From a virus, in the IMG/VR virus record IMGVR_UViG_3300045988_179268, positions 255,427-319,426 of that record: 64,000 bases of DNA. The stretch is one strand, 5' to 3'. Numbering within the stretch: the first letter of the stretch is position 1; each line of letters opens with the position of its first letter. The translations under genes were made by a program, and so were the position numbers. Positions 26,096 to 64,000 of the stretch are shown piece after piece. The notes below the pieces were generated by a model that was not told where the DNA came from, ran no database searches, and worked only from the letters and a program-made list of their open reading frames with translations.

Positions 26096-26557
26096 GTATG
26101 ATTAACCTTTAATTCAACTCGTGCAAATTTGTATGTTTCTGTCATCTATTGTTGCAAAATTTGACGGCTTGTGTCATACTATAAGTACGGGCTCAGAATA
26201 ACCCGACGTAGTTATACGCTGTGTTATTCTGAGCCATAATCGAATCAGTGTTAAGTGTAGTTGTTGCTACCTGAGTTCTGTGGGACAGTTAAATCCATCC
26301 ACCGTCCAGGTTACGGTATATCCGTGACCGCCCCATATTTTTGACGAGATGCAGATTTAGCCCATCTTCACAAGGGCACAAAAATTGGAAGTAAGGATTA
26401 TTACCTTGGCTACTTGGTTCGTTTACACGTAACCCTAAGCGTTATGCGAGGGGCTAGAGGTATCGTAGGGTGCCTATAACAGATGTAAATCTGTTATAAA
26501 TTAAATGCAACGGATAGTTGTTTTTGCAACAATTCGATACACCATTTAAACCTATGC
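26096..26557 (+). mobile_element. Miniature tnpB-less derivative (copy 1) of the IS605/IS1341-type element at 62496-64000
   Basis: The left end (gtatgattaacctttaattcaactcgtgcaaatttgtatg...) and the last ~140 nt align with the full copy. Short islands of the tnpB 3' half are retained (tccatccaccgtc, tttttgacgagatgcagatt). It ends in ttcgatacaccatttaaacctatgc. An internal 13-bp hairpin ggctcagaataac/gttattctgagcc sits at 26190-26235. Confidence 0.8.
26414..26557 (+). ncRNA. Putative omega-RNA scaffold / right end (copy 1)
   Basis: Near-identical to 63857-64000. The hairpin ataacag-N8-ctgttat keeps its stem while the loop differs among the three copies. The 5' boundary is not determinable. Confidence 0.45.
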
Positions 26558-26663
26558 GTCCTTGTAAGGTGAAACTGAGGCACATGACCCACCCCTTACA
26601 TTGAGGCACACTTAATAACTAACTTATCACAAATATACTTTTGGAAAGGATTTTTTCTTTCTC

Positions 26664-33010: not shown

Positions 33011-33015
33011 CATTT

Positions 33016-45331: not shown

Positions 45332-45344
45332 CTTTGATATAAAG
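45332..45344 (+). promoter_or_regulatory. CTTTGATATAAAG motif
   Basis: Directly after the stop of paralogue 1 and upstream of terminator 45369-45402. Confidence 0.3.
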
Positions 45345-45368
45345 TTAGGGGACATCCTCAATATAGGG

Positions 45369-45402
45369 AGGCACCGAACCATCGTTGGGTGGTTCGGTGC
45401 CT
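45369..45402 (+). terminator. Rho-independent terminator
   Basis: 12-bp stem aggcaccgaacc/ggttcggtgcct followed by ttttt. Confidence 0.8.
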
Positions 45403-45417
45403 TTTTGGTGCGCAACC

Positions 45418-45428
45418 TGATATATAGG
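45418..45428 (+). promoter_or_regulatory. TGATATATAGG motif
   Basis: About 75 nt upstream of ATG 45501. Confidence 0.35.
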
Positions 45429-45500
45429 AGATATAAGCTTTGTCGAGAAGTATTCTTCTTTTCAGCGCTTAGCATTTTTGTATGTAAGGAGAAAAATAGT

Positions 45501-48015
45501 ATGGCTACTAAAATTCACGTTGGTTTTAGAGATGGGAAGCTGACGGCGGGTAAGTGTGAGGCTGATAAGGGTAAATGCCCTTACGGTAACCACTTCGCGT
45601 CGCAGAGTGAAGCCGACAAATACCAAGAGCATGTTGCTGAGATTCTACACAGCCCTAAATATCGCGACTTAGCGGCTGGATTTGAGGCGATGGGCGCGGG
45701 TGGCAACGCCATGACTACCCAAGACGCTTTAGCCAATGGTTTCCCGCCGGAAATTGCTAAGCTTATTGGTGGTGAGCCTACTGACCCGAAATATGCGCGT
45801 GAAAACGTTGGCGTAGAGACTGTTGAGGAGCCTGTAGCTGAACCTGTGCAGGTGGATGTGGAGGATTCCCCACCTGTCGTCAGTGGCGAAAGCGCGAAAG
45901 TAGAAGAGGCAGAACAGCTATCTGAAAAGGAGCCGGAAACCGTCGAATCTCCCGTTTCTGAGTCAGAGGTGGCTACACCCCGACCAGCCAACGATGGCGC
46001 GGTTAGCCATGATGTGCCACCAGAACCAGGTAGTATTGACATCAACACCCCCGAAGGTGTTGAACGATTCATTGAGGTTCTTGACAGTTACAGGGTGTCA
46101 GATAGTGACAGCTTTAAGAAGTTCGCGCCATATTTAAAGCGAGCTGTTTACGCTACCGATGACCCAAATGGTAACTGGAGCAAGGTTGAAAAGGAGCTAG
46201 AAAGGTATGCTAGGGCTGTAAACCATGTGCGCACCGGGAGTCTTGAGAGGATGCAGGAGAAAGACAGGGAAAATAGTAGGCGACTTACCGATGTTGGCGT
46301 TGAGGTAACTATGGCGGATGCGGCGGCTAACAAATACTACGAGCGTCAGGGGTTAGAAGTTCCTGGCTACGGAGCATTCCGTGCAATTGCGAACTATGGC
46401 GAGTTCGGCAATGAAATTAACGATGTTATTGTGCAAGATACCCTCTTGAGGCGCACTCAGGACAAGAATACTGGTGACCGCATTGCCGCGTATAAAGCCA
46501 TTTCACCATCTATCGTATATGAAGACAATGTTTCAGGTGAAGCCGACTGGCATCGTGAGATAGGTATGACTGGAATCCCCTACAGCGCTCCTACTGAGAT
46601 GGGGTATGACCCAGACATTGAGATGAATAAGCTTAGGCGACATCTGTTTGTCAATAAGTATAGTGACATGCTTACCAAAGACCGTAATCTCAAAAAGCGT
46701 GCGAACTCTACTATGAACGGCTTAACTGTTCAGGAAATTGAGGAGAAATCCAAGTCTCCCTATAATAGCACTGATAGCGGTAAAGCGATTTACAGCGGAG
46801 ACTACGCAAGGTCACACGATAAAGACCTGGGTGGATGCGTATTATAGTCAGGCGGCAAAACGCACAGCAGAAAAATTGAAGCCTGGCTCTTACGTCATGC
46901 TAAACAATTACGACGCTGAGGTGTACCAGATTGGGGAGGATGGTGCGTTACTCACTCCAGAAGGCAACGTTTGGGGGCGTGTAGACTTTGAAAAGGGCAC
47001 CATTCATGACTCACAGGGAGTCAATATCTATGATACTCAGGGCGGTGCCCGACTCTATGCTGATGCCGACGAGTTGATGCGTTATGCCGCATTAGATGAC
47101 CAACCTAACGGTCTTGTCACCTCTGCTGACCCTGGCTACAGGTCTAAGTATGAGGATGACCCGAAGCTGAGCAAGAAGTTTGAGCGCGCCGTCAAATATC
47201 TTGAGTCGATGGAGGCTTTAGAGAACGAGGCGGCTATTAGGCAACAGGAGTTCGCTACAGCGTCCAGGTCATATAGCCCGAGTGAGCTGTACGACATTGC
47301 GACTGCAAAGTTTGGTATGCCTCACTTTGATAGGGAGTTGGCGAAGGATAAGTCGAAAGAAGCCATGATGAAGAAGGAAATCATGGTGCAGGATTATTTG
47401 CGTGAACAGTTCATGGAGCATGGCGCTAGGAACAATTTCAGGAACGGCACTATCGTAAAGTCGAACCGTCGAGGGTTGAGTGCTTTAGCACCTAAAAAGT
47501 CACTTGATGAGGTTCTTGGCAAGAATGTACCTGTGGCTGTGAAAGCTTCCATCATTAACGCGGCTAAGCGCAAACGCGCTAGGGAAACTGCTCAGGGCGA
47601 CGCATTTGCGGGCGCTTTTGAAAGGAAAATTACTGAGATAAACCCGACCAGTAAGAGGCGTAGAAGCTGGGGTGACAAGCCTCTACCGCCCGCTTATGCC
47701 CGAACCGGAGACTTACTGTACAACCCCGTTGGTGAGCCTGACGGTAAACACACAACATTTGTTGTGGTAGACCGCGAAAAGGGGTTAATGGTCGAGCTTA
47801 ACACTCGCACCCCACAGCACAGGACGAGGCGACACAACGCTAAGCAGATGGAAATTGACCCTAATTACGGGCTAGTCCCTGAGAAGCATCTAGCTTTAAC
47901 ATCTGAGTACGCCATCCAGGATGCTCTGAAACGTTACGAGATGGGCGACCCAAGCCTCAAAGTGAATTTCATGCCTCTAGAAGATGACAACGATATGCTC
48001 TTGAAGCTTTGGTAG
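45501..48015 (+). pseudogene. Large paralogue family member 2 of 4, interrupted by a single-nucleotide frame change near 46824
   Basis: The first frame reads ...AIYSGDYARSHDK and then DLGGCVL-stop at 46845-46847. The next frame continues TWVDAYYSQAAKRTAEKLKPGSYVMLN. Joined, this aligns residue-for-residue with PIYAGHSDAWDDKYLQDSYYKEASAETKEKLKPGSFMMLN of paralogue 3. Confidence 0.7.
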
Positions 48016-48050
48016 AACCAAGCTGGCTTCAACATCAATAGATGGCACAG

Positions 48051-48094
48051 GTGCCTGGCTTAGCGGTGTAGGAAACCGCGGCTAAGCCAGGCAC
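48051..48094 (+). terminator. Hairpin
   Basis: 14-bp stem gtgcctggcttagc/gctaagccaggcac, followed by a C-run instead of a T-run. Confidence 0.5.
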
Positions 48095-48104
48095 CCCCCC
48101 CCCC
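48094..48104. repeat. Homopolymeric C11 tract
   Basis: cccccccccc c read directly at 48094-48104, 43 nt upstream of ATG 48148. Confidence 0.9.
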
Positions 48105-48147
48105 TTAGTTAAGGGGTAGCATATTTTTATAAAAGGAGAAAAATAGT

Positions 48148-50583
48148 ATGGCTACTAAAGTTCACGTTGGGTTTAAGAATGGCAAGCTAACCAGTGGCAA
48201 GTGTGAGGCGGATGTTCGCGCTTGCCCTTATGGTAACCATTTTGCGTCGCAGAGTGAAGCAGACAAATATCGAGAAGATGTTGCCGCAATTCTTTACAGC
48301 CCTGAGTATCGCCACCTAGCGGAAAGCTATGAGGTCTTTGGTGCAGAGGGCGGCAAGATGACCACTGAGCAGGCTTTAGGTCAAGGTTTCCCGCCGGAAA
48401 TTGCGAAGCTTATCGGTGGTGAGCCGACTGACCCGAAGTATGCGCGTGAGAATGTGGGCAAAGACGTTGTGCCAGAGGTTGCGGCTGACGACTCGCCAGT
48501 TGATGCCCTTTCGTCAAGTGGCGCTGAGGTGAAGCAGGAAAGTGCCCCTGTAGACCACTCAAGGAAACCCAAAGGTATTGACCTTGAGACGGAAGAAGGT
48601 GTCGCAAGGTTTAAAGAGATTCTGAATAGCTACACGGTTTCTTCCCGTGAGGAATTTGAACAGCCACCGAGTAGGCTACGCAGGATTATCCGCCTTATCG
48701 ACCCGAGGCGCAAAGCTAAGCTGGTAAAGGAATATAAGACTTTCGGGTCTGTGCTTACCGCATTGCGCACTGGTCAAATTATGAGCCTCAAGAAGGAGGA
48801 GAGTAATCAGCTTACAGATATTCTGATGTATCAGTCTCGATACCGCTTATCAGCAATGAAGAAATATCGAGAACTAGGGAAAAGTAACCCTGACGACACT
48901 TTATTCAGAAGCATTGCGAGTTATGGTGAGGCGGGTAATGATGCGAATGATTTAATCACTTTAACCACGCTGGCTAGGCGTGCGGCAGGCGTGAATGAAG
49001 ATGACGACTTTGCGGGGTATGAGGCTGTTGATGCTGACCTTATTCATAATGACGGTGTTGCTGGTGAAGAGGAGTGGAACCGTGTAGTCGGCAGGGATGG
49101 CATTCCTTATGGCGCGCCAACTGAGATGGGGTATGACCCTGACATTGAGCTGAATAAGATTAGGCATATGAAGCTTGCTAATAGGTATAGTGACATGCTT
49201 GCGGATAGCCGCGCCAAAAAGAAGCTTGCGAACGCCACGATGGATGGTCTGACGGTGGGTGAAATCTTAGCGAAGGTGGATGCCCCTAACCAGAGGCACA
49301 GTTCGTCACAGCCTATCTATGCGGGTCATAGCGACGCTTGGGATGACAAGTATCTACAGGACAGCTATTACAAGGAAGCGTCAGCTGAAACTAAGGAGAA
49401 GTTGAAGCCAGGCTCGTTTATGATGCTTAACGGGCGAGACGCGGAAGTTTATCGGATTCGTGAAGATGGTGCTCTCGTTACGCCGGAAGGCAAGACGTGG
49501 GGTCACGTCGATTTTAAGACTGGTCGTGTCCATAACGCACATGGTGAAAACATTGTTGTGAGTCACAAAGGTGCCCGCGTGTACGCTAATGAGGGTGAGT
49601 TGATGCGTTACGCCGCGCTTGATGACGTTGAAGAGATGCCCGCTGGCGGTATCGTTGGGGCAACCAGTTCCTCTGACCCTGGATATAGGTCTAAGTATGA
49701 GGATGACCCAAAGTTAAGTAAGAAGTTTGAACGCGCCGTCAGGCACCTTAAGCGTGAGGAGAAGGCGCTCACCTTTAGGGCTAAGATGCAAGAAGAGTAT
49801 GGTCGAGCTGTTGCTCAGCATGACGCGGCAGACCTGTACACTATCGCTACCAGCAAGCTTGGGATGCCTCCATTCAGTAAGGAAGTTGCCGAAGACAACT
49901 CCCCCAACGGTATCTTGTACAGGGAAATTGAGACGAAGAGGTATCTTGAGAGCCAGTTCCGCGCCGGTAAAGCAAGGTATGATTTCGGAAAGAAAGCTAT
50001 TGTAAAGAGTAACCGTAAGCCCATTGAAGACCTTATGCCTAAGAAGTCTCTGAGTGATGTTCTTGGTGATGATTTGCCTGTGGCTACGAAGGTTTCTATT
50101 ATGAACGCGGCTAGACGTAATCGCAACAGAGTCACTACCCAGGGCGACCAGTTCGCTGGCGCTTTTGAAGGTAAGATTGGGGCGCATAACCCGTCAGCGC
50201 ATAGGCGTAAAAACTGGTCTACTGAGAGGGTCGCGCCTGAACAAGCTGAAACGGGTAGCCTGTTATACAACCCTGACGCTAAGTACGATGACAAGTATGA
50301 AGTGTTTGTGGTGGTAGACCGCGAAAAGGGTCTGATGGCTCCCATTAAAGAAGCTACTTGGCAACATAGGACTCAAGCCCAGGAGGAGTCAGCTAAGGAG
50401 CGTAAGGCAAGAATGTATAGGGAAATTGATAAGGCGAAGGAATTGTCCCGTAAGGACATGGCGCTTGCGTCTGAATATTCTATTCAGGATGCTTTGAACC
50501 GCCACAAGATGAAAGACCCAAGCCTTAAGGTGGAGGTTATGCCTCTACAGTTGAAGAACCAGCGAGGTCTGGCTCTCTGGTAA
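48148..50583 (+). CDS. Large paralogue family protein 3 of 4 (811 aa)
   Basis: MATKVHVGFKNGKLTSGKCEADVRACPYGNHF. LIGGEPTDPKYARENVG. SDPGYRSKYEDDPKLSKKFERAV. Ends ...GLALW. Confidence 0.85.
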   Translation: MATKVHVGFKNGKLTSGKCEADVRACPYGNHFASQSEADKYREDVAAILYSPEYRHLAESYEVFGAEGGKMTTEQALGQGFPPEIAKLIGGEPTDPKYARENVGKDVVPEVAADDSPVDALSSSGAEVKQESAPVDHSRKPKGIDLETEEGVARFKEILNSYTVSSREEFEQPPSRLRRIIRLIDPRRKAKLVKEYKTFGSVLTALRTGQIMSLKKEESNQLTDILMYQSRYRLSAMKKYRELGKSNPDDTLFRSIASYGEAGNDANDLITLTTLARRAAGVNEDDDFAGYEAVDADLIHNDGVAGEEEWNRVVGRDGIPYGAPTEMGYDPDIELNKIRHMKLANRYSDMLADSRAKKKLANATMDGLTVGEILAKVDAPNQRHSSSQPIYAGHSDAWDDKYLQDSYYKEASAETKEKLKPGSFMMLNGRDAEVYRIREDGALVTPEGKTWGHVDFKTGRVHNAHGENIVVSHKGARVYANEGELMRYAALDDVEEMPAGGIVGATSSSDPGYRSKYEDDPKLSKKFERAVRHLKREEKALTFRAKMQEEYGRAVAQHDAADLYTIATSKLGMPPFSKEVAEDNSPNGILYREIETKRYLESQFRAGKARYDFGKKAIVKSNRKPIEDLMPKKSLSDVLGDDLPVATKVSIMNAARRNRNRVTTQGDQFAGAFEGKIGAHNPSAHRRKNWSTERVAPEQAETGSLLYNPDAKYDDKYEVFVVVDREKGLMAPIKEATWQHRTQAQEESAKERKARMYREIDKAKELSRKDMALASEYSIQDALNRHKMKDPSLKVEVMPLQLKNQRGLALW

Positions 50584-50615
50584 CGCCCCATTTGCAGATA
50601 ATTACATTGTGTTTT

Positions 50616-50663
50616 GGTGCCCAGCTTAACACCAACCTATCTAAGCTAGTTAAGCTGGGCACC
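50616..50663 (+). terminator. Hairpin terminator
   Basis: 15-bp stem ggtgcccagcttaac/gttaagctgggcacc. Confidence 0.7.
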
Positions 50664-50716
50664 TTGCCCTGTCAGGGGTTTACATATTTTTATTTCAAAG
50701 AAAAGAGAAGAATACT

Positions 50717-53191
50717 ATGACTACGAAAATGCACGTTGGATTCAGGGACGGTCAGCTAGTTAGCGGCAAGTGCGAAGCTGACAAAGGGAAATGTCCTTAT
50801 GGTAATCATTTCGCGTCGCAGAGTGAGTCAGATGCGTATAGGGAGCATGTCGCTGAAATTCTTTATAGCCCTGAATGTGCAGGTTTGGCGGCTGGTCTTG
50901 AAGCAATGGGCACCGCAAGTAACGGCATGACCACTGAGCAGGCTTTGGCGAACGGCTTCCCAGAGGAGATTGCGAAGCTGATTGGTGGTGAGCCTACCGA
51001 CCCGAAGTATGCCCGTGAAAACGTTGGTAAAGAACTGGAAGATGACTCACTTGAAGAGCTTCGTGAGGCGCTGAGTGGCAACCTGGGCGACGGGACAGAT
51101 GACGATGATGATTATGAGCCTCCAGCCTCTATGAGCGAAGCTATTGATGAGTTCATCGCAAAGCATGAAGTTTCTTCCCTGCGAGAAGCTTTAGGTGGCG
51201 AAACTCACGCCCTGGTTCATAGGTCTGTACCGGAAGGTATTGACCTTGAAACAGAAGAGGGTGCCGCTAAGTTCATGGAAGTGCTCAGTAGCTACAAGAT
51301 GTCAGCCAGAAGCGACTTTGAAGAGCTTCCCCCTTCGCTAGATAGGCACGGCTACACCTACTCCTATGGGGATAGAAGCAGTGATTACTACAAGTCCCTA
51401 AAGAACGAATACCAGAACTTTGGCGTAGCTTTAACCGCTTTGCGCACAGGGCAGACTGACCAGTTGAGCGTAGATGAGCTTGACATTGCTTCGGAGCATG
51501 AGGCTGAGTTCAACATCCTAAACGCGGCGGCAGATGCGGCATACGAGGGTGTTGATGGTGAGCGTGATACACGTGGCTGGCGTTCTGTCACAGACTACGG
51601 CGAAGAGGGTAACCAGGTTAATGACTCAATTATGCGTAGCATGATAATCCAGTCCGCGAATGGCGCTAATCGCCACTACCGCACTGAGGCATACAACCAC
51701 CTTAATGCGGACGTTATCTACAACGATGGTATCGGCGGGAATGACACATGGGAATATTACATGGGTGATTTGTCGCAGGATGAACTGTCTAAGTTGGGTT
51801 TAAGCCCTGACATTGAGATGAATAAATTGCGCCATCACCTGTATGCAGAGAGGTACGGTGAGGAGCTTGAAAATGCGGATAAGGCAAAGCATGAAGCGGC
51901 GCGTAAAAGTGCTGGGACAAGCCTGGAAGACCTTAAAGCGAACATTAAGTCCAACACCTCCAGCCTTGACCAGCTAAAAAATTCCCCCATTAGCAAGAAC
52001 TTCTATCTGCATAATTCTTCACCAGCTGTGAAGGCTTACCACAAGGAAGCTGGCGCGAAGTTGAAGGAGAAGATTAAGCCCGGCTCTTTCGTTATGCTGA
52101 ACAGGCAGGATGCGCTTGTATACAGGATTGAGGAAGACGGCTCCCTCCGCACTCCAGACGGGGCGCTATGGGGGCACGTGAACCTTAAAACGGGTGCGAT
52201 GCATGACATTGACGGCACAAACATGCTTCATTCTGGTGGTGCTCGTGTCTACAGCAATGAGGATGAGCTGTATAAATATGCGGCGCTTGACGACGGGTTC
52301 CACCACCAGTCAGGGTGGTTCTCTGCTGACCCTGGTATCGTAAGCACCTATGAGGGTAGTGGCACCTACGGGAAACTGTTCGATAACGTAACTGATTACC
52401 TTAAGGAACGTGAGGACGCGCTAACGGAGCAGTCTCGCCGTAGCAGGGAGCTTGCAGATGGCGTGGACTCTATGGACGCAGGGAAGCTTTACGACGTTGC
52501 TCGAAAGAAGTTCGGGATGCCTGCCATCAGCAAGTCCAGCAATGCACTCAAAGCAGGTAACGAAGGCGAGCTCAAGCGTGAGGTGAGGAAGTACCTCAAG
52601 GGGCAGATTGACTCTGGCAAAGTGGAGTTTGATGCTAACACGAAGGAGTTCAAAGCTTCTAATCGTGAACCAGTGAAGCAGTATAACGAGGCTGAGGATA
52701 TGAAGCGTATCCTTGGTGAGAGTAATGACATCCCAGTGGCGACTCGTGTATCTATCATGAACAGCGCCCGCCGCAAGCGCGACATGATTACGGCTCAGGC
52801 TGACCAGTTCGCAGGTGCGTTTGAGCCGAGGCTTACGGAACATAACCCTGTGGCATCTAGGCGCGTGAACTGGAATCACGAATCGGTAAAAGTCAAGGAC
52901 GCTGAGAAGGGTAATCTTATCATTAGCAACACTATGGATAAGGATGGTACACGCGACACTTACGTTGTTGTGGATGCAGAGAAGGGGCTTATGGTTCAGA
53001 TTGACACTAACCTTACACCTACAGCTAGGTTGAGTGACCCTGATGGCAGTAGGGCAAGCGCTTTCCAGGCTACTACTTCCGAGTATGCTGTTCAGAATAT
53101 TTTGCGCCGCTACGAATTGGAAGACCAGTCTCTTAACGTTCAGCCTATCTCTGATAAAAATAGGTACGGTGATAGACTTCAAGTCTGGTAG
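50717..53191 (+). CDS. Large paralogue family protein 4 of 4 (824 aa)
   Basis: MTTKMHVGFRDGQLVSGKCEADKGKCPYGNHF. LIGGEPTDPKYARENVG. NSARRKRDMITAQADQFAGAFE. Ends ...RLQVW. Confidence 0.85.
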   Translation: MTTKMHVGFRDGQLVSGKCEADKGKCPYGNHFASQSESDAYREHVAEILYSPECAGLAAGLEAMGTASNGMTTEQALANGFPEEIAKLIGGEPTDPKYARENVGKELEDDSLEELREALSGNLGDGTDDDDDYEPPASMSEAIDEFIAKHEVSSLREALGGETHALVHRSVPEGIDLETEEGAAKFMEVLSSYKMSARSDFEELPPSLDRHGYTYSYGDRSSDYYKSLKNEYQNFGVALTALRTGQTDQLSVDELDIASEHEAEFNILNAAADAAYEGVDGERDTRGWRSVTDYGEEGNQVNDSIMRSMIIQSANGANRHYRTEAYNHLNADVIYNDGIGGNDTWEYYMGDLSQDELSKLGLSPDIEMNKLRHHLYAERYGEELENADKAKHEAARKSAGTSLEDLKANIKSNTSSLDQLKNSPISKNFYLHNSSPAVKAYHKEAGAKLKEKIKPGSFVMLNRQDALVYRIEEDGSLRTPDGALWGHVNLKTGAMHDIDGTNMLHSGGARVYSNEDELYKYAALDDGFHHQSGWFSADPGIVSTYEGSGTYGKLFDNVTDYLKEREDALTEQSRRSRELADGVDSMDAGKLYDVARKKFGMPAISKSSNALKAGNEGELKREVRKYLKGQIDSGKVEFDANTKEFKASNREPVKQYNEAEDMKRILGESNDIPVATRVSIMNSARRKRDMITAQADQFAGAFEPRLTEHNPVASRRVNWNHESVKVKDAEKGNLIISNTMDKDGTRDTYVVVDAEKGLMVQIDTNLTPTARLSDPDGSRASAFQATTSEYAVQNILRRYELEDQSLNVQPISDKNRYGDRLQVW

Positions 53192-54646: not shown

Positions 54647-54720
54647 CGGGGTGTAGCGCAGTTTGGTAGCGCATCTGCTTTGGGAGCAGAGGGTCGCAGG
54701 TTCAAATCCTGTCACCCCGA
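54647..54720 (+). tRNA. tRNA-Pro (anticodon TGG)
   Basis: Acceptor cggggtg/caccccg, anticodon stem tctgc/gcaga with loop ttTGGga, T arm gcagg-ttcaaat-cctgt. Confidence 0.85.
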
Positions 54721-54722
54721 CG

Positions 54723-54838
54723 AACAACGAAGAGATTCATGCATTGAATATAGATTCTATTCATGATGATTCTATTTTATGCACTTAATAACCGTACTCT
54801 AGACAATGGTGTGTTTTCGCAACTCTCTCTTCGTTGTT
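54723..54838. repeat. 13-bp perfect inverted repeat enclosing a 90-nt AT-rich spacer between two tRNAs
   Basis: aacaacgaagaga (54723-54735) pairs with tctcttcgttgtt (54826-54838). Inside are direct repeats gattctatt x2 and attcatg x2. Confidence 0.7.
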
Positions 54839-54840
54839 TT

Positions 54841-54912
54841 GCCGGTTTAGCTCAGTGGTAGAGCGGTGATTTCGTAAGTCATAAGTCGTCAGTTCGATTC
54901 TGACAATCGGCT
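54841..54912 (+). tRNA. tRNA-Thr (anticodon CGT)
   Basis: Acceptor gccggtt/aatcggc, loop ttCGTaa, T arm gtcag-ttcgatt-ctgac. The anticodon stem closes with two G-U pairs. Confidence 0.75.
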
Positions 54913-54915
54913 CTT

Positions 54916-55039: not shown

Positions 55040-55064
55040 TGTGATATAGAATTGTGAGTATAAT
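55040..55064 (+). promoter_or_regulatory. Tandem -10-like elements (TGTGATATAGA, TGTGAGTATAAT) at the left boundary of miniature IS copy 2
   Basis: The TATAAT hexamer at 55059-55064 is formed by the first bases of the element. The same gtataattaacc start is seen in the full copy at 62496. Confidence 0.4.
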
Positions 55065-55516
55065 TAACCTTTAATTCAACTCGTACAAAATTGTATGTTT
55101 CTGCCATCTATTGTTACAAAATTTGACGGCGTGTGTCATACCATAAGTACAGGCTCAGAATAACCCGATGTAGTTACACGCTGTGTTATTCTGAGTCATA
55201 ATCGAATCAGTGTTAAGGCTAGTTGTTGCTACCTAAGTCCTGTGGGATAGTTAAATCCATCCACCGTCCAGGTTGCGGTATATCCGTGACCGCCCCATAT
55301 TTTTGACGAGATGCAGATTTAACCCATCCTTCACAAGGGCACAAAAACTGGAAGTAAGGATTGTCTTAGCTACTTGGTTTGGTTACATGTAACCCTAAGC
55401 GCTTAGCGAGGGGCTAGAGGTATCGTAGGGTGCCTATAACAGTTTTTCTGTCATGAATTAAATGCAACATTTGAGTGTTTTTTTGTAGCACTTCGATACA
55501 CCATTTAAACCTATGC
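55058..55516 (+). mobile_element. Miniature tnpB-less derivative (copy 2) of the IS605/IS1341-type element
   Basis: Collinear with copy 1 over its whole length with scattered substitutions. Same ends (gtataattaacctttaattcaactcg ... cttcgatacaccatttaaacctatgc). Confidence 0.8.
55374..55516 (+). ncRNA. Putative omega-RNA scaffold / right end (copy 2)
   Basis: Aligns with 26414-26557 and 63857-64000. Differences cluster in hairpin loops. Confidence 0.45.
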
Positions 55517-55644
55517 ACCAGTCAGTGCTGTGTTTTTCTTCTTTTATGGAGTTGGCACTGGTGGCTCTTCCGCATCAGCGGGAGTGTCAGCTGGTTTTGC
55601 ATTTCTTGTTCATTCAGACTTCCTATGAGGAGAGAGAGATTATA

Positions 55645-58359
55645 TTGGCTAAGAACCCTAAGCGTTCCATGAAGAAGACTTTGACTGCCAGTGTCGGCTT
55701 GGCACTGGTGGGTACCGGCTCAATCGCTGGCGCGGCTAATGCCATCACCGCCAATGATGCGAAGCCGCATAACTTCGAGGGCGCTGTATCGGCTGAGGCT
55801 TACAGCAAGACCACTCAGGACATCCCCGTTGATTACAGCGCGCTTGACGAGGCTGTGAAGGTGGCTAAGGAGAAGGGTGTTAAGGTTACTCAGGGTGAGA
55901 CTGAGGAGGTGAAGGTCGCCACTTCTGCCGAGGCAGACGCTAAGGTTGCTGAGGCGAAGAAGGAAAGTACCGCAAACATTGAGAAGTTGCGTGCGGCTGT
56001 GAAGACCATTGCCGACAATAAGGCTGACGCTGAGAAGGTTGCTAAGGCTAATGCTGACCGTTCCGCTTTGGAGAAGCAGATTGCTTCTATCAAGGCAGAG
56101 AACGAGAAGATTACCAAGGAGAACGAGGAAGCTACTAAGCGTTACAACGAGGCGAAGGCGGCTTACGACAAGCTGTACGCTGAGCAGGTAACTAACGCTG
56201 ACCCGTACAAGGCTATCCATAACGCTGACAAGCTTGCTCTGGATAAGCCTTTCGAAATTGTGGACAGCCCGAACAACCTTGTTTCTATTAATGGCAAGGC
56301 TCCTTCCAGTTCTAACGCTGACCGTAGTGATTTCCCTGATAGCTGGTCTTCCGAGTACGCTTACCGCTTCACTAACCTTGACCCGAACAACCCCAACCTG
56401 ACTATGAAGTATAAGGGTGTTGCGGTTGATAAGGAAACTAAGCGCCCGTTGGATGCTGAGGTGAAGATTCTCCGCTTTGTCGATAACCCGGCAGGTTCCC
56501 CGGTGAACGCCGATGGTTCCGCTAAGTGGCAGAACATGTATGATGTCTATTCTTCTTTTAATGACATTGTTGCAAAGCAGAAGGTATATGCTTCTGAGGT
56601 TCAGCTGACCTATACCTACAGTGATACTGGCGAGAAGTACGAGAAGAAGATTTATGATACCGTTGGCTCTCTGAACGCTCAGGAGAATAACGGCACTGAG
56701 TCCGCTGTTCGTTACGAGTTCACCGCACCGGGTAAGGGTGTTATCGCCACCTATGTCAGTTCTGAGTCGCGTATCGCGCCTGATGCCCAGAAGATTAACG
56801 GTACCGCTTCCCAGATGGTAGACCGTGGCTTCTACATTAAGGCTGGTTCGAACCAGGGTGGCGTGGTGTTCGATGAGAACGACGATGCGTTGAAGTACCT
56901 GGGTGTTACTTACCTGATGGAGAATGGTGGTACGTTCTTCTTCGGTACCACTGGTAATGCTGGTGTCCCTGGCACTGACGGTGTTATTGGTGACCCGCAG
57001 AAAACTGGTGCTTCCCGTTACAGTGATTACTCTATTGACGCTTCTTACAACCACCTGATGCTGAGTGCTAATACTGTTGCGCCTACCGCTGTTGCTCCGG
57101 TTAAGCCTCAGTTGAAGCCTTTGAAGCCTGTCCCTGAGCTTCCTCCGGTGGCTAAGCCTACCCCGAAGCCGGTTCCCGAGGTTAAGGTGAACAAGAAGGT
57201 CATTAAGTTGGCTAATGTCGCGCCTGAGAAGACTGTCGCAAACGAGGATGTCGTTATCCCTGCTGGTAACGATTTGCCGACACAGACTGTTACTGGTAAC
57301 ACCGGCATGAAGGCTCCTGAGCAGTTCTCCATTACTGACCTTGTGGAGTATGCGAAGGACGGCGACGGTAATTGGCGTGCGTTGGTTTCCATTACCGAGG
57401 ATAAGCTTAAGGTTGTGGATGCGTCCGGTAAGGATGTGACTAACCTCTTCGACATTAAGGTTGAGAAGGGTAAGCTTGTCTCTGGTACTGGCACTGACTT
57501 TGATGGTCATGTGGCAGATGTGGTCACCGCTACCGCTAAGGAACCGGGTAAGCTGGCTGTTAACAGCTCTTACTCCCTCAAGGTGGAGTCCAAGTCTCTG
57601 AATGATTTCAAGGCTGATGAGATGCGTGACCTTGGTGTTGTGACCATCAACAACAAGCCCATCGTCACCTCTATTCACCGTGTGAAGGAGATTACAGGTC
57701 AGGTCAATAAGGAGCTGACTACTCCTGCATCTGAGGTGAAGCCGGGCGCTACCCTGCGCTGGAAGGCTCAGGCTAAAAACGCCTCCGGTGCAGACATGGA
57801 GAAGGCGGTCATCTCTGAGTTCCCCGACAATGCGCAGTTCGATGTTGCGTCCGTGAAGTTCCTGAATACTAACGGTCGAGGCGTTGTAAACGGCAATGTT
57901 TGGGAGATTGGTGAGTTGAAGGCGGGTGAGACTGTCGAGTTTGAGGTTGAGGTAACCCTCAAGAATGACCTTGACATGGCGCGTATCGCTTCCGAGGGTA
58001 TTCTGAACACGATTGTGCTGACGAATAACCCCACCCCGACTGACCCGACCCCGACCACTCCTCCTGAGAAGTGCCAGGTGAACGCTACTGTCGATGAGGA
58101 TACTGATGGTTGCGATATGACGGTTACTAAGGTCACCCCTCCGCCGGTAACCCCGGAGTCCCCGAAGCCTTCTGAACCTGCTAAGCCGGAACAGCCGAAG
58201 GAAATTGAGAAGGCTAAGGCTGAGACTGGTGATACTGGTTACGGCATTGCTGGGCTGGATGCGACTACTGCCGCTGGTGGTATCGGCATCCTGGCTCTTG
58301 CGGGTGGCGCTGTGTACTTCGCCAAGCGCCGCAAGAAGAACGAAGGTGACGCTTCCTAA
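55645..58359 (+). CDS. Cell-wall-anchored surface protein: signal peptide, Ala/Lys/Glu coiled coil, globular region, Pro-rich linker, DUF11-like domain, LPXTG-like sorting signal
   Basis: TTG 55645 sits 6 nt after GAGGAGAGAGAG; ATG 55669 is an alternative. Signal peptide KKTLTASVGLALVGTGSIAGAANA. Pro-rich linker APVKPQLKPLKPVPELPPVAKPTPKPVPE. DUF11-like KPGATLRWKAQAKNASG...WEIGELKAGETVEFEVEVTL. C-terminus KAETGDTG plus the hydrophobic stretch GIGILALAGGAVYFA plus KRRKKNEG. Confidence 0.8.
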   Translation: MAKNPKRSMKKTLTASVGLALVGTGSIAGAANAITANDAKPHNFEGAVSAEAYSKTTQDIPVDYSALDEAVKVAKEKGVKVTQGETEEVKVATSAEADAKVAEAKKESTANIEKLRAAVKTIADNKADAEKVAKANADRSALEKQIASIKAENEKITKENEEATKRYNEAKAAYDKLYAEQVTNADPYKAIHNADKLALDKPFEIVDSPNNLVSINGKAPSSSNADRSDFPDSWSSEYAYRFTNLDPNNPNLTMKYKGVAVDKETKRPLDAEVKILRFVDNPAGSPVNADGSAKWQNMYDVYSSFNDIVAKQKVYASEVQLTYTYSDTGEKYEKKIYDTVGSLNAQENNGTESAVRYEFTAPGKGVIATYVSSESRIAPDAQKINGTASQMVDRGFYIKAGSNQGGVVFDENDDALKYLGVTYLMENGGTFFFGTTGNAGVPGTDGVIGDPQKTGASRYSDYSIDASYNHLMLSANTVAPTAVAPVKPQLKPLKPVPELPPVAKPTPKPVPEVKVNKKVIKLANVAPEKTVANEDVVIPAGNDLPTQTVTGNTGMKAPEQFSITDLVEYAKDGDGNWRALVSITEDKLKVVDASGKDVTNLFDIKVEKGKLVSGTGTDFDGHVADVVTATAKEPGKLAVNSSYSLKVESKSLNDFKADEMRDLGVVTINNKPIVTSIHRVKEITGQVNKELTTPASEVKPGATLRWKAQAKNASGADMEKAVISEFPDNAQFDVASVKFLNTNGRGVVNGNVWEIGELKAGETVEFEVEVTLKNDLDMARIASEGILNTIVLTNNPTPTDPTPTTPPEKCQVNATVDEDTDGCDMTVTKVTPPPVTPESPKPSEPAKPEQPKEIEKAKAETGDTGYGIAGLDATTAAGGIGILALAGGAVYFAKRRKKNEGDAS

Positions 58360-59606: not shown

Positions 59607-59699
59607 ATGTTATCCTTGTAATGTATTAGGTGAGGTGCCCCGACTTTGGGGCACCTGATTAGCACCTGTTCTTTTAAGAATATCAGATATGGTGGCTAT

Positions 59700-60554
59700 A
59701 TGCGCAATAATCACGAAAATATTAAGAGTTCAGAGGGTACTGGCGAGGGGCATAAAATTTCTCGCCGTGTACTACTATTTGGTGGGGCGGCGGCAGTTGT
59801 TGGCGGCGGCTGGTGGGGATTATCGACTTATCGACCATATGTAGGGAAAGATAACACTATTCGGGTGCCTTATACAGCAATTCACCAAGACGCTGTGCCG
59901 GTAGCTACAACTGATGCTGGGCAGGCGGTGTACCAGCCACCGGCTGACCTTGAGGGCGATAAAATGCCCGTACTTGACGACTACACTCTATATGCACCTG
60001 AGCCAGCCCATGAGGTACACGCCCCGGCTTGCGAGGCTGATGCCAATAAGATAACCAGCGAAATACCCGTAAACCTTCCAGCCTTCGGGTGGCACATACC
60101 GTCTCTAGGGGTTTCTTCTAGCATGATTTCTAGTGGTGTTCAGAATGGGCGAATGGTGCTCCCCATCACAACTGACGGTTCAGGCATCTGGTATTCACCC
60201 TCTAACCCTATCTCCGCTACTGAGGGCTCCACAATCCTTGCGGGTCACGTTAATAAGCAGAACTATTATTTGTCGCCGTGGGGATACCTTCACCGACTCA
60301 AGGGGTGCGAGAGGGTGTTTGTTACTGATGGGGCGGGAAAAGTTACCCAGTGGCATGTTGCCGAGATGTACACAGTCCCACAAAGCGACCTGACGAAAGT
60401 TGATGAGATGTGGCAGAAAACTGGTTCACGCTCACTATGGCTTGTAACGTGCGCAGGCTTTCAGGTGGGGAATGACGGCGCGTCAGCTTATGGCAACACT
60501 TTTGGATTTGGGTATCAGTATAATCTTGTCGTTAAATGTGAGCCATGTGTTTAA
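59700..60554 (+). CDS. Sortase-like transpeptidase (class F-like)
   Basis: N-terminal TM anchor VLLFGGAAAVVGGGWWGL. His motif STILAGHVN. Cys motif SLWLVTCAG. Tail YQYNLVVKCE resembles class F Y-x-D-N-V-V-V, but the usual Arg after the Cys is not evident. Confidence 0.6.
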   Translation: MRNNHENIKSSEGTGEGHKISRRVLLFGGAAAVVGGGWWGLSTYRPYVGKDNTIRVPYTAIHQDAVPVATTDAGQAVYQPPADLEGDKMPVLDDYTLYAPEPAHEVHAPACEADANKITSEIPVNLPAFGWHIPSLGVSSSMISSGVQNGRMVLPITTDGSGIWYSPSNPISATEGSTILAGHVNKQNYYLSPWGYLHRLKGCERVFVTDGAGKVTQWHVAEMYTVPQSDLTKVDEMWQKTGSRSLWLVTCAGFQVGNDGASAYGNTFGFGYQYNLVVKCEPCV

Positions 60555-62461: not shown

Positions 62462-62605
62462 ATGATACTATAGAGTCGTTCACACCCATCCAGTAGTATA
62501 ATTAACCTTGAGTCCAACTTGCACAAAATTGTATATTACTGTAGTCAGCTGTTGATAAAATTAGCGCCTTATGAGATACTGAGTGTACACGAAAGGAGGA
62601 ACCTA

Positions 62606-63877
62606 ATGCAACTGGCGGAGCGGCACCTTATCAAGCCGAATCACGAGCTCTATCCTATACTGGATGACTTAACGTTCAAGGCTAAGAATCTTTACAATCA
62701 TGGGCTGTATCTTTATCGTCAGTCGTATTTTGAGCACAAAAAGAACTCTGAAACCCCTGTTTTGTCATGGGCTGATATTGATAAGAGCCTGCGGAAGCAA
62801 GGTCACGTAGACATGCGCGCCCTGCCGTCTAAGGTTGCTAACGCCGTGCTGAAAAACTTAGGCGAAAACATCACTTCGTTTTGGAAGCTGGTGCACCTAA
62901 AAAATAGCGGCAAACTGGCGCAGAACCCTAAGCTTCCTGGTTATCTGCATAAGACTGATGGGCGTTATGCTTTGTCTTTTAATTATCAGACTTTTGGTGC
63001 TAAGCGCGGTTCCAATAATGAGCTGTTTTTGTGCCCAAAAGGTATTAACCTACCCATTTCCACTAAGGTTGATAATCCCAAGCAGGTTCGTATTGTACCT
63101 AGCCACAATAATTTTATTATTGAGGTTGTTTATGATGCAGAAGAGAGTGTGCCTAAAAGCACGTCTAGATATGCTGGTATTGATTTAGGAGTAGATAATT
63201 TTGCTACCGTCACATTCTCCACCCAAAATAACCCGTTAATTATTAAGGGTCTTGAGCTAAAGTCTATCAATCAGGGCTACAACCGCCTTATTACCAAAGC
63301 GCAAACCCTGCTCCCCAAAACCCAGAAGACAAGTCGGTCCATCCACCGTCTTTGGTCACGCCGCTCATGGGTTCTTCGAACGAAAATCCATCAGATGACG
63401 GCTTTCCTCACCACTCTTTTTGACGAGATGCAGATTGAAAAAGTCTTTATCGGGAAAAACAATAACTGGAAGCAGAAATTGCCTTTTGGTAAGAAGGTTA
63501 AACAGCGCTTCGTTTATCTCCCTTATGAAACTTTCATCGAGCAATTGCAGTATAAATGTCAATTGCGAGGAATTACTGTTGTCATACAGGAAGAGTCATA
63601 CACATCTAAGGCTAGTTTCTTGGATAGCGACGATATTCCTGTTTACGGTGAAACAGATAACCCGAAGTTTTCTGGACGCAGGATTAACCGAGGACTCTAC
63701 CGCACTGGTGATGGTCAGTTAATAAATGCTGACGTTAATGGGTCGTATAACATTCTGCGAAAAGGACTAGCAAATAGTCGCCTGTCTTTCAAGGTGCATA
63801 ACCCATTAATTCATCCTCTTGTTGTCAAGGGTATTGGAGAAGAATCTAACGAAAAGTTGGTTCGTCTATACATGTAA
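62606..63877 (+). CDS. tnpB: TnpB (IS605 OrfB family) RNA-guided nuclease, 423 aa
   Basis: ATG 62606 follows AAAGGAGG. GIDLGVDNFATV (RuvC-I Asp). IGKNNNWKQKLPFGKKVKQRFVYLPY. VVIQEESYTSKASFLD (Glu). RGLYRTGDGQLINADVNGSYNILRKG (Asp). No Cys zinc finger between the last two motifs. Confidence 0.9.
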   Translation: MQLAERHLIKPNHELYPILDDLTFKAKNLYNHGLYLYRQSYFEHKKNSETPVLSWADIDKSLRKQGHVDMRALPSKVANAVLKNLGENITSFWKLVHLKNSGKLAQNPKLPGYLHKTDGRYALSFNYQTFGAKRGSNNELFLCPKGINLPISTKVDNPKQVRIVPSHNNFIIEVVYDAEESVPKSTSRYAGIDLGVDNFATVTFSTQNNPLIIKGLELKSINQGYNRLITKAQTLLPKTQKTSRSIHRLWSRRSWVLRTKIHQMTAFLTTLFDEMQIEKVFIGKNNNWKQKLPFGKKVKQRFVYLPYETFIEQLQYKCQLRGITVVIQEESYTSKASFLDSDDIPVYGETDNPKFSGRRINRGLYRTGDGQLINADVNGSYNILRKGLANSRLSFKVHNPLIHPLVVKGIGEESNEKLVRLYM

Positions 63878-64000
63878 CCCTAAGCTTATGGCGAGGGGGT
63901 AGAGGTACTGTAGGGTGCCTATAACAGGTTCTACCTGTTATGAATTAAATGCAACGGATAGTTGTTTTTGCAACAATTCGATACACCATTTAAACCTATG
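63857..64000 (+). ncRNA. Putative omega-RNA scaffold / right end of the full-length element
   Basis: It overlaps the tnpB 3' end and runs to the element terminus, as omega-RNAs do in characterised TnpB systems. The hairpin is ataacag-gttctac-ctgttat. The 5' boundary is unknown. Confidence 0.5.

What the first reader, a model, noticed from the sequence alone, without database searches (positions are those of the whole stretch)
62496..64000. tnpB-only IS605/IS1341-type element with two miniature, omega-RNA-retaining derivatives in the same replicon
The full copy carries an apparently intact TnpB and no tnpA. The RuvC residues are readable: Asp in GIDLG, Glu in QEESYTS and Asp in NADVNG.

Two elements of about 460 bp (26096-26557 and 55058-55516) share its left end (gtatRattaacct...) and its last ~140 nt. 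All three finish with ttcgatacaccatttaaacctatg.

Between the ends, the miniatures keep only short islands of the tnpB 3' half. These are tccatccaccgtc, the 20-mer tttttgacgagatgcagatt, and ttggttcg..ac(a/g)tgtaaccctaagc. That pattern is what one would expect if RNA or cis elements, rather than the protein, are under selection.

In the right end, the hairpin ataacag/ctgttat keeps its stem while all three loops differ (atgtaaat, ttttt, gttctac).

Three copies with near-identical termini imply recent mobility inside this element. They also imply that one TnpB could be loaded with omega-RNAs from three loci, each carrying a different downstream guide.
Basis: partly seen in the sequence, partly recalled or inferred. 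Interest (0 to 1): 0.75.

Follow-up and report, generated by a model that had tools for sequence, protein, structure and literature searches.

The report
TnpB transposon with guide-RNA-only miniatures
A large, unidentified replicon from the human mouth carries one transposon that encodes only an RNA-guided nuclease (TnpB) and two 455-base miniature copies that keep just the promoter and guide-RNA parts; this is a known kind of selfish element, but here it belongs to the IS607 family and keeps an extra, unexplained RNA helix.

Summary
The window holds exactly three copies of one right end: a 1,500-nt tnpB-only element (62500-63999) and two miniatures (26100-26555, 55062-55514).

The classification needs correcting. 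Relatives with identical ends carry an IS607-type serine recombinase, so this is a tnpA-deleted IS607-family element, not IS605/IS1341.

Empty sites in closely related contigs show all copies are discrete insertions placed 3' of GTAT, with no duplication. Every empty site therefore reads GTAT plus the exact sequence downstream of the right end, which is a ready-made TnpB target. Occupied sites read CTAT.

TnpB is intact (D193/E330/D376, shifted-glutamate clade, no zinc finger, dN/dS about 0.1). The roughly 150-nt right end folds into five helices with compensatory changes.

They are the two most conserved stretches of tnpB, including at synonymous sites, and are kept in most of the 49 distinct miniatures.

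Guide-RNA-bearing miniatures used in trans were already described for IS605. The IS607 setting and the embedded helix are new variants. No expression or activity data exist.

The parts
62496..62499 (+). GTAT target/TAM abutting the left end of the full copy. It is preceded by an extra GTA (62493-62495) that the empty allele lacks.
   Evidence: Empty alleles L128, L129 and L131 read ...catccaGTATgttcag. Information content falls to zero 5' of GTAT in 75 distinct copies.
62500..63999 (+). tnpA-deleted IS607-family element (1,500 nt): left end, tnpB, right end.
   Evidence: The autonomous relative L102 has the same ends plus tnpA.
62552..62580 (+). Promoter-like site in the left end (TTGATA-17-GATACT with an upstream TG). 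It drives tnpA-tnpB in autonomous copies and is fused directly to the tnpB ribosome-binding site here.
   Evidence: This is a consensus match only, but the site is conserved in all three size classes.
62606..63877 (+). tnpB, 423 aa. Catalytic residues are D193, E330 and D376. Gly283 sits at the canonical RuvC-II position. There are no zinc-finger cysteines.
   Evidence: Pfam OrfB_IS605 and Cas12f1-like_TNB. NCBIfam guided_TnpB at 149 bits. Alignment A7. Profile hits to solved TnpB and Cas12f structures. dN/dS of 0.07-0.17.
63335..63350 (+). Island 1, the 5' strand of an internal helix within tnpB.
   Evidence: It is the most conserved 15-nt window of tnpB (entropy 0.016 bit; third-position entropy 0.0 against a gene mean of 0.81). 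It pairs with island 2.
63422..63436 (+). Island 2, the 3' strand of the internal helix (GACG-A-GATG-CA-GATT).
   Evidence: It is the second most conserved window (0.035 bit). Pairing is shown.
63459..63472 (+). Island 3 (ACAATAACTGGAAG), a colinear 13/14 match to the miniatures. Its core CTGGAAGC is conserved.
   Evidence: Its role is unknown.
63848..63999 (+). Right-end scaffold (guide-RNA-like, five helices S1-S5) ending in ...AAACCTAT. The presumed guide begins at 64000 and continues beyond the window as gttcagataggattatttta.
   Evidence: Covariance model score of 168 bits. Structure counts. Downstream sequence read from L001.
26096..26099 (+). GTAT target/TAM of miniature 1.
   Evidence: The empty allele L122 reads ...cactttagGTATgcgtccttgtaagg.
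26100..26555 (+). Miniature 1 (456 nt). It contains a promoter-like site TTGCAA (26152-26157) / CATACT (26175-26180), a 13-bp hairpin (26190-26235), island 1 (26291-26306), an apical hairpin (26309-26329), island 2 (26343-26357), island 3 (26378-26391) and the right-end scaffold (26405-26555).
26556..26575 (+). Presumed guide of miniature 1 (gcgtccttgtaaggtgaaac).
   Evidence: It is identical to the sequence that follows GTAT in the empty allele L122. Its use as a guide is inferred.
55058..55061 (+). GTAT target/TAM of miniature 2.
55062..55514 (+). Miniature 2 (453 nt) with the same layout: island 1 at 55253-55268, island 2 at 55305-55319, island 3 at 55341-55354, scaffold at 55366-55514. Its promoter hexamers are weaker (TTACAA / CATACC).
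   Evidence: An orthologous site in L068 holds a 374-nt miniature (read together).
55515..55534 (+). Presumed guide of miniature 2 (gcaccagtcagtgctgtgtt).
   Evidence: Its position immediately 3' of the right end. Use as a guide is inferred.

Best explanation
The three repeats are one family of IS607-type transposons at three stages of reduction. The autonomous form, seen only in related contigs, is left end, serine-recombinase tnpA, tnpB, right end.

The window's 1.5-kb copy has lost tnpA precisely, so the left-end promoter now drives tnpB directly. The two 455-nt miniatures have also lost tnpB. They keep the left end with its promoter, a 5' hairpin, a helix formed by islands 1 and 2, and the roughly 150-nt structured right end.

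**Shown**
- All copies are discrete insertions 3' of GTAT, without duplication. TAT is present at both junctions, as expected for serine-recombinase crossover at a shared dinucleotide.
- Related genomes carry the corresponding empty sites.

**Inferred**
- Each copy is transcribed from the left-end promoter through the right end into the flank. This yields a guide RNA whose last 16-20 nt match the flank.
- The single TnpB binds these RNAs, including those from the miniatures in trans, and cuts any empty allele (GTAT plus flank). Recombination with an occupied copy then restores or spreads the element.
- Occupied sites escape cutting because they read CTAT instead of GTAT.
- Movement to new sites needs a TnpA supplied from elsewhere.
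- The island 1:2 helix is probably a 5' domain of the RNA precursor. Its role is not known.
For: **Copy number and limits**
- There are three copies and no more.
- Boundaries are sharp in 75 left and 89 right distinct flanks.

**Discrete insertions**
- Miniature 1 has an empty site in L122.
- The full copy has empty sites in L128, L129 and L131.
- Further occupied/empty pairs among the fetched loci: six more insertion sites keep exactly GTAT in the empty allele, and a few diverged orthologues read GTAC or ATAT.

**Family**
- L102, L007 and L011 have the same ends plus an IS607 transposase (NF033518 at 185 bits, above the cut-off of 110; Pfam Resolvase).
- Other copies carry tnpA remnants.

**TnpB**
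- The catalytic triad is invariant and the glutamate is shifted.
- It is under purifying selection.

**Right-end structure**
- 94% of cells are paired, against 32-44% when partners are slid.
- Compensatory changes occur at four or more pairs.

**Island 1:2 helix**
- The islands are complementary. 94% of cells pair, against 26-44% when slid, with compensatory changes.
- They are the two most conserved windows of tnpB despite dS of 0.5-1.6.
- The helix is kept around three different apical inserts.

**Precedent**
- ISXfa1 (IS607 family) uses TAM GGG while its right-end junction reads CGG. It has a 144-nt scaffold and a 17-nt guide (Yoon et al., bioRxiv 10.1101/2023.08.09.552727).
Against: - There is no RNA evidence of any kind. 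The promoters are consensus matches, and the one in miniature 2 is degenerate.
- No tnpA is present in the window, and whether this genome has one is unknown.
- This TnpB clade lacks the zinc finger and has never been assayed.
- The loci were fetched with an 18-nt right-end motif. One arm of helices S2 and S3 is therefore invariant by selection, and the copies are related, which inflates the shuffle statistics.
- The lower part of helix S5 is poorly supported.
- The core of the island 1:2 helix never varies, so only its outer pairs give covariation.
- The full copy's left junction has three extra bases that the simple model does not predict.
- No curated Rfam guide-RNA family matches.
Confidence: 0.75

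Rival explanations
1. One reading: an IS200/IS605 (IS1341-group) element moved as single-stranded DNA by a Y1 HUH TnpA. On this view the right-end hairpins are the transposase's DNA recognition structures.
For: - The element has tnpB only, inserts 3' of a tetranucleotide and makes no duplication. That geometry also fits IS605.
- A weak match to a Y1 transposase (33 aa, E = 0.006; query sequence recalled from memory) lies beside a different TnpB gene in L024.
Against: - All three intact autonomous relatives with identical ends encode an IS607 serine recombinase between the left end and tnpB. Several other copies keep fragments of it.
- No Y1 gene lies within any copy.
- The TAT shared by both junctions fits dinucleotide crossover.
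Confidence: 0.05
2. The conserved right end and the islands are DNA-level sites rather than RNA. They would be recombinase binding sites or a recombination enhancer needed in cis for transposition, so the miniatures would be ordinary non-autonomous transposons with no guide-RNA role.
For: - IS607 transposases bind several subterminal motifs.
- The right end contains direct repeats (TGCAAC twice), and A(A/T)TTAA(A)CC occurs at both termini.
- Enhancers inside recombinase genes are known for invertases. This last point rests on my own knowledge.
Against: - Compensatory base changes and frequent G-U pairs are strand-specific. They fit a folded single strand, not duplex protein sites.
- The two island strands stay paired across spacers of 3, about 40 and about 70 nt.
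- A solo right end with no left end persists at one locus in six contigs.
- The two roles are not mutually exclusive for the last 40 nt or so.
Confidence: 0.12
3. The miniatures are inert deletion remnants. Their shared islands would reflect recent common descent, not function.
For: - A few very short or internally deleted copies (203-226 nt) exist and look dead.
- The promoter of miniature 2 is degraded.
Against: - 49 distinct miniatures at different sites differ widely outside the islands, yet keep islands 1 and 2 almost invariant.
- The same bases are frozen at synonymous sites in 25 full genes that have dS of 0.5-1.6.
- Insertion polymorphism shows recent mobility.
Confidence: 0.08

Closest known systems
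ISXfa1 / IS607 (IS607-family tnpA-Ser + tnpB elements; Yoon et al. 2023, bioRxiv 10.1101/2023.08.09.552727)
   Same: - A serine-recombinase TnpA in the autonomous copies.
- TnpB with the guide-RNA scaffold (about 145-150 nt) at the right end.
- Insertion at a short motif that shares bases with the element junction.
- The target motif and the right-end junction differ at one base (GGG/CGG there, GTAT/CTAT here). That difference would spare occupied sites.
   Different: - The target is GTAT rather than GGG.
- This TnpB has the shifted glutamate, DLG rather than DPG, and no zinc finger.
- The window copy lacks tnpA.
- There is an abundant miniature progeny and an extra helix embedded in tnpB.
- The RNA and the nuclease activity are untested here.
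PATE-like miniatures of IS605 elements in Geobacillus stearothermophilus (Meers et al. 2023, PMC10055086)
   Same: Short protein-less elements that share both ends with tnpB elements. They are stated to 'often encode omega-RNAs' that must be used in trans by TnpB encoded elsewhere.
   Different: - Those are IS200/IS605 elements moved by a Y1 TnpA as single-stranded DNA. These belong to IS607.
- These miniatures are larger (about 400-470 nt) and keep a promoter and a 5' RNA domain as well as the right end.
ISDra2 TnpB-omega-RNA (solved structures 8EXA, 8BF8, 8H1J)
   Same: The same protein fold family (profile match), with a 3' guide taken from the flank and a 5' TAM.
   Different: ISDra2 has the canonical RuvC-II glutamate, a C4 zinc finger, the DRDxN motif, a Y1 TnpA partner and TAM TTGAT. 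Sequence similarity is only distant.
TnpB clades with a rearranged RuvC-II site (RIIr-5 and relatives; Altae-Tran et al. 2023, PMC10691335)
   Same: Glycine at the canonical glutamate position, an alternative glutamate just before the zinc-ribbon position, and NADxN in RuvC-III (one search compared).
   Different: Assignment to a named branch was not tested. This clade has also lost all four zinc-finger cysteines.
RAGATH-18-derived guide RNAs of IS607 TnpBs (Cell Res 2024, PMC11061315) and Rfam IS605-orfB motifs
   Same: Structured RNAs downstream of tnpB that serve as guides.
   Different: No match to any Rfam family, even at E up to 10. The scaffold here is a different RNA.

Membership tests
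IS607 family | Autonomous members encode a serine-recombinase TnpA (HTH plus resolvase catalytic domain) between the left end and tnpB. | tested here: met
   L102 911-1531 matches NCBIfam transpos_IS607 at 185 bits (cut-off 110) and Pfam Resolvase. It has the same left end (GTATAATTAACC) and right end. L007 and L011 are alike. The window copy itself has none, so it is a non-autonomous member.
IS607 family | Insertion without target duplication or terminal inverted repeats, at a short site that shares a crossover dinucleotide with the element junction. | tested here: met
   Empty sites keep a single GTAT. Occupied sites read GTAT[...]CTAT, so TAT is present at both junctions.
IS607 family | Transposition through a double-stranded circular intermediate. 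| not testable with these tools
   Needs excision and junction assays.
IS200/IS605 family, IS1341 group | Ends recognised by a Y1 HUH TnpA, with autonomous relatives carrying that gene. | tested here: not met
   Relatives carry a serine recombinase instead. The only Y1-like trace is a weak fragment beside an unrelated TnpB in L024.
IS200/IS605 family, IS1341 group | tnpB as the only gene. | tested here: met
   This is an operational bin, not evidence of relationship.
TnpB (RNA-guided nuclease) | Split RuvC domain with an Asp-Glu-Asp triad. | tested here: met
   D193, E330 and D376 are invariant in 36 homologues. NCBIfam guided_TnpB matches at 149 bits, above the cut-off of 100.
TnpB (RNA-guided nuclease) | C4 zinc ribbon between RuvC-II and RuvC-III. 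| tested here: not met
   The window protein has no Cys or His there, and the whole clade has at most one Cys. Loss is reported for some large branches (PMC10691335).
Omega/reRNA guide | Encoded on the tnpB strand at the right end, with the guide supplied by the adjoining flank and the target equal to TAM plus flank. | tested here: met
   The geometry is shown by the empty sites: GTAT followed by the exact downstream flank.
Omega/reRNA guide | Conserved secondary structure supported by covariation. | tested here: met
   Support is moderate, and part of the alignment is fixed by the search motif.
Omega/reRNA guide | Expressed, bound by TnpB and directing cleavage. | not testable with these tools
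   No RNA or biochemical data are available.
Omega/reRNA guide | Match to a curated guide-RNA family. | tested here: not met
   No Rfam match.
MITE / PATE-type non-autonomous element | Short, non-coding, shares both ends with a larger element, present in many copies at different sites, and polymorphic for insertion. | tested here: met
   49 distinct miniatures of 203-472 nt. Empty site shown.
MITE / PATE-type non-autonomous element | Terminal inverted repeats and target duplication (the classical MITE definition). | tested here: not met
   No inverted repeats were found and there is no duplication. The elements are 'MITE-like' in behaviour only.

The most novel reading that the evidence does not exclude
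The guide RNA of this IS607 lineage has two parts. One is the usual right-end scaffold. The other is a 5' domain closed by the island 1:2 helix.

In full elements the 5' domain lies about 400 nt upstream, inside the tnpB reading frame. In the miniatures it lies next to the scaffold.

The 5' domain would be required for TnpB loading, RNA processing or RNA stability. Alternatively it could switch the transcript between use as mRNA and use as guide.

The miniatures would then be streamlined guide-RNA genes. In this sample they outnumber nuclease genes by about two to one, and together they would let one TnpB drive many loci through a population of co-resident or co-infecting replicons.
Probability: 0.3. 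Interest if true: 0.7.

Novelty: new variant of a known kind. Interest (0 to 1): 0.55.

Why it matters
TnpB-only elements, and miniatures that lend guide RNAs to a nuclease encoded elsewhere, are already part of the accepted picture. The core of the finding is therefore ordinary.

This case adds four things:
- A clean natural data set for the less-studied IS607 branch. It contains all three reduction stages, dozens of insertion sites and exact empty alleles in sister genomes. From these, the target motif (GTAT) and the self-sparing junction (CTAT) can be read directly.
- A TnpB clade with a shifted glutamate and no zinc finger that is evidently still under selection.
- A short helix whose two strands are the most conserved parts of tnpB at the nucleotide level, and which most of the miniatures keep. 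This points to an unrecognised RNA requirement that can be tested with a few constructs.
- The setting: a roughly 320-380-kb, largely unannotatable replicon from human oral samples. Occupied and empty alleles coexist across samples, which makes guide-RNA-driven homing between genomes directly testable.

Tried and rejected
- **Bacterial genome scan for TnpB relatives.** It returned only two cyanobacterial loci at 38-39% identity. They were of no use for covariation. The result does suggest that the replicon is absent from binned species genomes.
- **Phage collection.** No match.
- **Inocle hypothesis for the host replicon.** Rejected, because Inocles are 24-32% GC and this window is 46-51% GC in 4-kb bins.
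- **NCBIfam and PHROGs on 20 large ORFs.** Almost nothing was recognised, so the replicon stays unidentified.
- **Rfam at permissive thresholds.** Only noise.
- **RNAalifold pairing between island 2 and the right-end segment CA(A/C)TTCG.** Rejected as the main fold. That segment covaries with its partner inside helix S5, and all the proposed pairs are invariant.
- **Internal promoter at island 2.** The -10 element is poor in both the full and the miniature copies, so I did not pursue it.
- **Group I intron (IStron-like) reading of the miniatures.** There is no Rfam intron match and all three window copies are intergenic.
- **Covariance-model search for right ends lacking the 18-nt motif.** It recovered only motif-bearing copies, so it gave no independent test.
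- **First MAFFT alignment of full copy against miniatures.** It misplaced the left ends. Local alignment was used instead.
- **Coordinate error.** An early note put the miniature ends one base too far. This was corrected.
Full report
**What is in the window**

The sequence at 62496-64000 holds an uninterrupted 423-codon gene (62606-63877). It matches Pfam OrfB_IS605 and Cas12f1-like_TNB and NCBIfam guided_TnpB (149 bits, cut-off 100).

Two stretches of about 455 nt at 26.1 kb and 55.1 kb are 92-93% identical to each other. They share with the full copy:
- the first 40-95 nt;
- the last 133 nt, at 91% and 84% identity;
- three short exact or near-exact colinear islands in between.

A covariance model built from the right end finds exactly these three places (168, 152 and 145 bits). 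The next hit scores 13 bits.

**Where the window comes from**

The TnpB protein occurs, residue for residue, on a 319-kb contig of a human oral metagenome. That contig continues past the window end.

Several observations bear on the identity of the replicon:
- Close homologues (84-89% identity) sit on contigs of up to about 300-384 kb, often several per contig.
- The same right-end motif is present on six IMG/VR viral contigs of up to 263 kb.
- No close relative exists among representative genomes of 185,579 bacterial and archaeal species.
- Nineteen of the 20 large ORFs tested have no NCBIfam match or only weak, uninformative PHROG matches.
- The G+C content (46-51% in 4-kb bins) excludes the 'Inocle' elements, which are 24-32% GC (PMC12340149).

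The replicon is a large, uncharacterised and probably extrachromosomal or viral element. I could not identify it further.

**Exact ends, target and empty sites**

An exact 18-nt right-end motif retrieved 109 metagenome stretches. These contain 28 full-length copies and 50 miniatures (49 distinct sequences) at different sites.

Across 75 distinct left flanks and 89 distinct right flanks, information content drops to zero immediately 5' of GTAT and immediately 3' of ...AAACCTAT.

Contigs that encode identical neighbouring proteins provide empty alleles:
- **Miniature 1.** L122 reads ...cactttagGTATgcgtccttgtaagg. The window reads ...tttagGTAT[456 nt]gcgtcc....
- **Full copy.** L128, L129 and L131 read ...catccaGTATgttcagatagg.
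- **Other loci.** At six more insertion sites among the fetched loci, the empty allele retains exactly GTAT. A few diverged orthologues read GTAC or ATAT.

The elements are thus discrete insertions 3' of GTAT without duplication. They are polymorphic among near-identical genomes, which means recent gain or loss.

The full copy has one oddity. Its left junction reads GTA-GTAT where the empty allele has only GTAT. Five of the 75 copies share this extra GTA, against about one expected by chance. This looks like a left-end variant with a 3-nt duplication.

**Family**

Three related loci (L102, L007, L011) have the same left end (GTATAATTAACC...) and right end. They carry a 206-aa gene between the left end and tnpB. 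That gene matches NCBIfam transpos_IS607 (185 bits, cut-off 110) and Pfam Resolvase. Several other 'full' copies keep N- and C-terminal fragments of it.

The lineage is therefore IS607-family. The window copy is a clean tnpA deletion in which the left-end promoter-like site (TTGATA-17-GATACT) abuts the tnpB ribosome-binding site (compare).

The window has no tnpA. The TAT shared by both junctions is what a serine recombinase crossing over at a common dinucleotide leaves behind. Yoon et al. (bioRxiv 10.1101/2023.08.09.552727) describe the same logic for ISXfa1: TAM GGG, right-end junction CGG, a 144-nt scaffold and a 17-nt guide. Here the pair is GTAT (target) against CTAT (right end). If TnpB reads the G, occupied sites are spared.

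**The nuclease**

In an alignment with 35 representatives at 32-53% identity:
- D193 (GIDLG), E330 (EESYTS) and D376 (NADVN) are invariant;
- the canonical RuvC-II position is an invariant glycine (IGKN);
- the glutamate lies six residues before the position where the first zinc-finger cysteine would be;
- the whole clade lacks the C4 zinc finger.

This matches the 'C-terminally shifted glutamate' and RuvC-II-rearranged NADxN TnpBs described by Yoon et al. and Altae-Tran et al. (PMC10691335).

A profile of the alignment matches solved TnpB and Cas12f structures. Among 25 full-length genes there are no internal stops, and dN/dS is 0.07-0.17 at dS of 0.5-1.6. The protein is under purifying selection. 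Activity has not been tested for this zinc-finger-less clade.

**Right-end structure**

An alignment of 89 distinct right ends folds into the following helices:

| Helix | Description |
|---|---|
| S1 | Hairpin CCC..GC / GC..GGG |
| S2 | Hairpin AGGTRYC / GGGTGCCT |
| S4 | Closing helix TTAAAYG / CRTTTAA |
| S5 | Inner hairpin enclosed by S4 |

The fold ends six bases before the flank.

On the MAFFT alignment, 93.9% of cells pair, against 32-44% when partners are slid. No shuffle out of 500 reaches the observed covariation score. The model-fitted alignment gives similar figures.

Clear compensatory pairs on the MAFFT alignment (the model-fitted alignment, gives similar counts):

| Pair | Pair types and counts |
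|---|---|
| S1 | GC 60, AU 26 |
| S3 extension | GC 53, AU 23 |
| S4 | UA 62, CG 10, UG 15 |
| S5 | UA 23, GC 17, AU 15 |

Caveats:
- The 18-nt search motif fixes one arm each of S2 and S3.
- The copies are related.
- The lower part of S5 is not supported.
- No Rfam family matches.

**The islands**

Among the 25 full-length genes the mean nucleotide identity is 81% and the mean third-position entropy is 0.81 bit. The two most conserved 15-nt windows of the entire gene are island 1 (ATCCACCGTCTTTGG, 0.016 bit) and island 2 (TTTGACGAGATGCAG, 0.035 bit). Both rank ahead of the catalytic GIDLG region. Third-position entropy is 0.0 in island 1 and 0.23 in island 2. That is nucleotide-level constraint.

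The two islands are complementary: AAATC-CATC-CAC-CGTC pairs with GACG-A-GATG-CA-GATTT. In 46 miniatures, 93.9% of cells pair, against 26-44% when slid. Compensatory changes occur at four outer pairs.

The helix encloses three different inserts:
- about 70 coding nucleotides in full copies;
- a covarying hairpin of about 30 nt in most miniatures, including both window copies;
- a bare TTT loop in eight short miniatures.

Frequent G-U pairs place the structure on the + strand. More specifically, they are the two strands of one helix.

What the helix does is not known. I favour a 5' domain of the guide-RNA precursor, serving loading, processing or stability. In that case the miniatures bring it next to the scaffold, while full copies have about 400 nt of coding sequence between the two.

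**How it most likely works**

Shown:
- the anatomy, the family and the target motif;
- discrete and recent insertions;
- structural conservation;
- an intact nuclease gene under selection.

Inferred:
- Transcription starts at the left-end promoter and runs through the right end into the flank.
- TnpB binds the resulting RNAs, including the miniature RNAs in trans.
- TnpB cleaves GTAT-flanked empty alleles, and repair from an occupied copy follows.
- New insertions require an IS607 TnpA supplied in trans.

The empty alleles found in sister genomes are perfect predicted targets. Each reads GTAT followed by 20 or more nt identical to the flank downstream of the corresponding right end.

**Comparison with what is known, and verdict**

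Non-autonomous tnpB-only elements are the majority case. Meers et al. (PMC10055086) already note protein-less PATE elements that 'often encode omega-RNAs' needing TnpB in trans. The concept is therefore not new.

What is new here:
- the IS607 context;
- the GTAT/CTAT pair;
- the zinc-finger-less shifted-glutamate nuclease;
- the abundance and size of the miniatures;
- the helix embedded in tnpB.

I rate this a new variant of a known kind, of moderate interest.

Noticed in passing
window 8684-10285 (+): A second, unrelated TnpB-like gene (533 aa). It has the canonical layout: GVDVG, VEDL, a CxxC...C..H zinc ribbon and DRDVN. A 74%-identical 535-aa paralogue sits between two other genes in L128, L129 and L131 but not at that site in the window genome. 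A second RNA-guided-nuclease family is therefore also mobile in this replicon.
   Followed up: partly
window 42845-53191 (+): Four tandem paralogous genes of about 811-824 aa, with a repeat period of about 2.6 kb and 65-85% nucleotide identity. They have no family match.
   Followed up: no
window 62493-62499; also L016, L009, L050, L092: The left junction of the full copy reads GTA-GTAT although the empty allele has only GTAT. Five of the 75 copies share this extra GTA, against about 1.2 expected by chance. It may be a left-end variant or the result of an offset crossover.
   Followed up: partly
L013, L039, L051, L070, L081, L103 (for example L103, minus strand, about 5066-5220): A solo right-end scaffold with no left end and no islands. 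It lies about 25 nt after the stop codon of the same conserved gene in six contigs. This is an orphan guide-RNA-like unit kept at one locus, and it might be read through from the upstream gene.
   Followed up: no
window 64000; L002 end: The window ends one base after the right end. An independent JGI contig of the same genome stops inside the right end, 68 nt after the tnpB stop codon. This repeat family evidently breaks short-read assemblies.
   Followed up: no
window 55513-58359 and 59646-60554: An Adhesin_P1_N-domain protein (about 930-950 aa) and a sortase lie between miniature 2 and the full copy. The longest ORF call for the adhesin borrows the last two bases of the miniature for its ATG, so that start is probably an artefact.
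   Followed up: no
window 5863-5937, 32722-33089, 54647-54913: Seven tRNA genes (Met x2, Gln x2, Ser, Pro, Thr) lie in a replicon whose large ORFs are nearly all unrecognisable. GC skew is strongly positive from 36 to 60 kb, and almost all genes there are on the + strand.
   Followed up: no
L024 5596-6828 (-) and 6888-6977 (+): A third TnpB type (410 aa, canonical with a zinc finger) in a related contig. Beside it lies a weak 33-aa match to the C-terminus of a Y1 transposase. The query sequence for that match was recalled from memory.
   Followed up: partly
L025, L059, L113, L107, L029: 'Full' copies of 1.57-1.65 kb keep only the first about 26 and the last about 31 codons of tnpA. Loss of tnpA therefore happened by internal deletion more than once.
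   Followed up: partly
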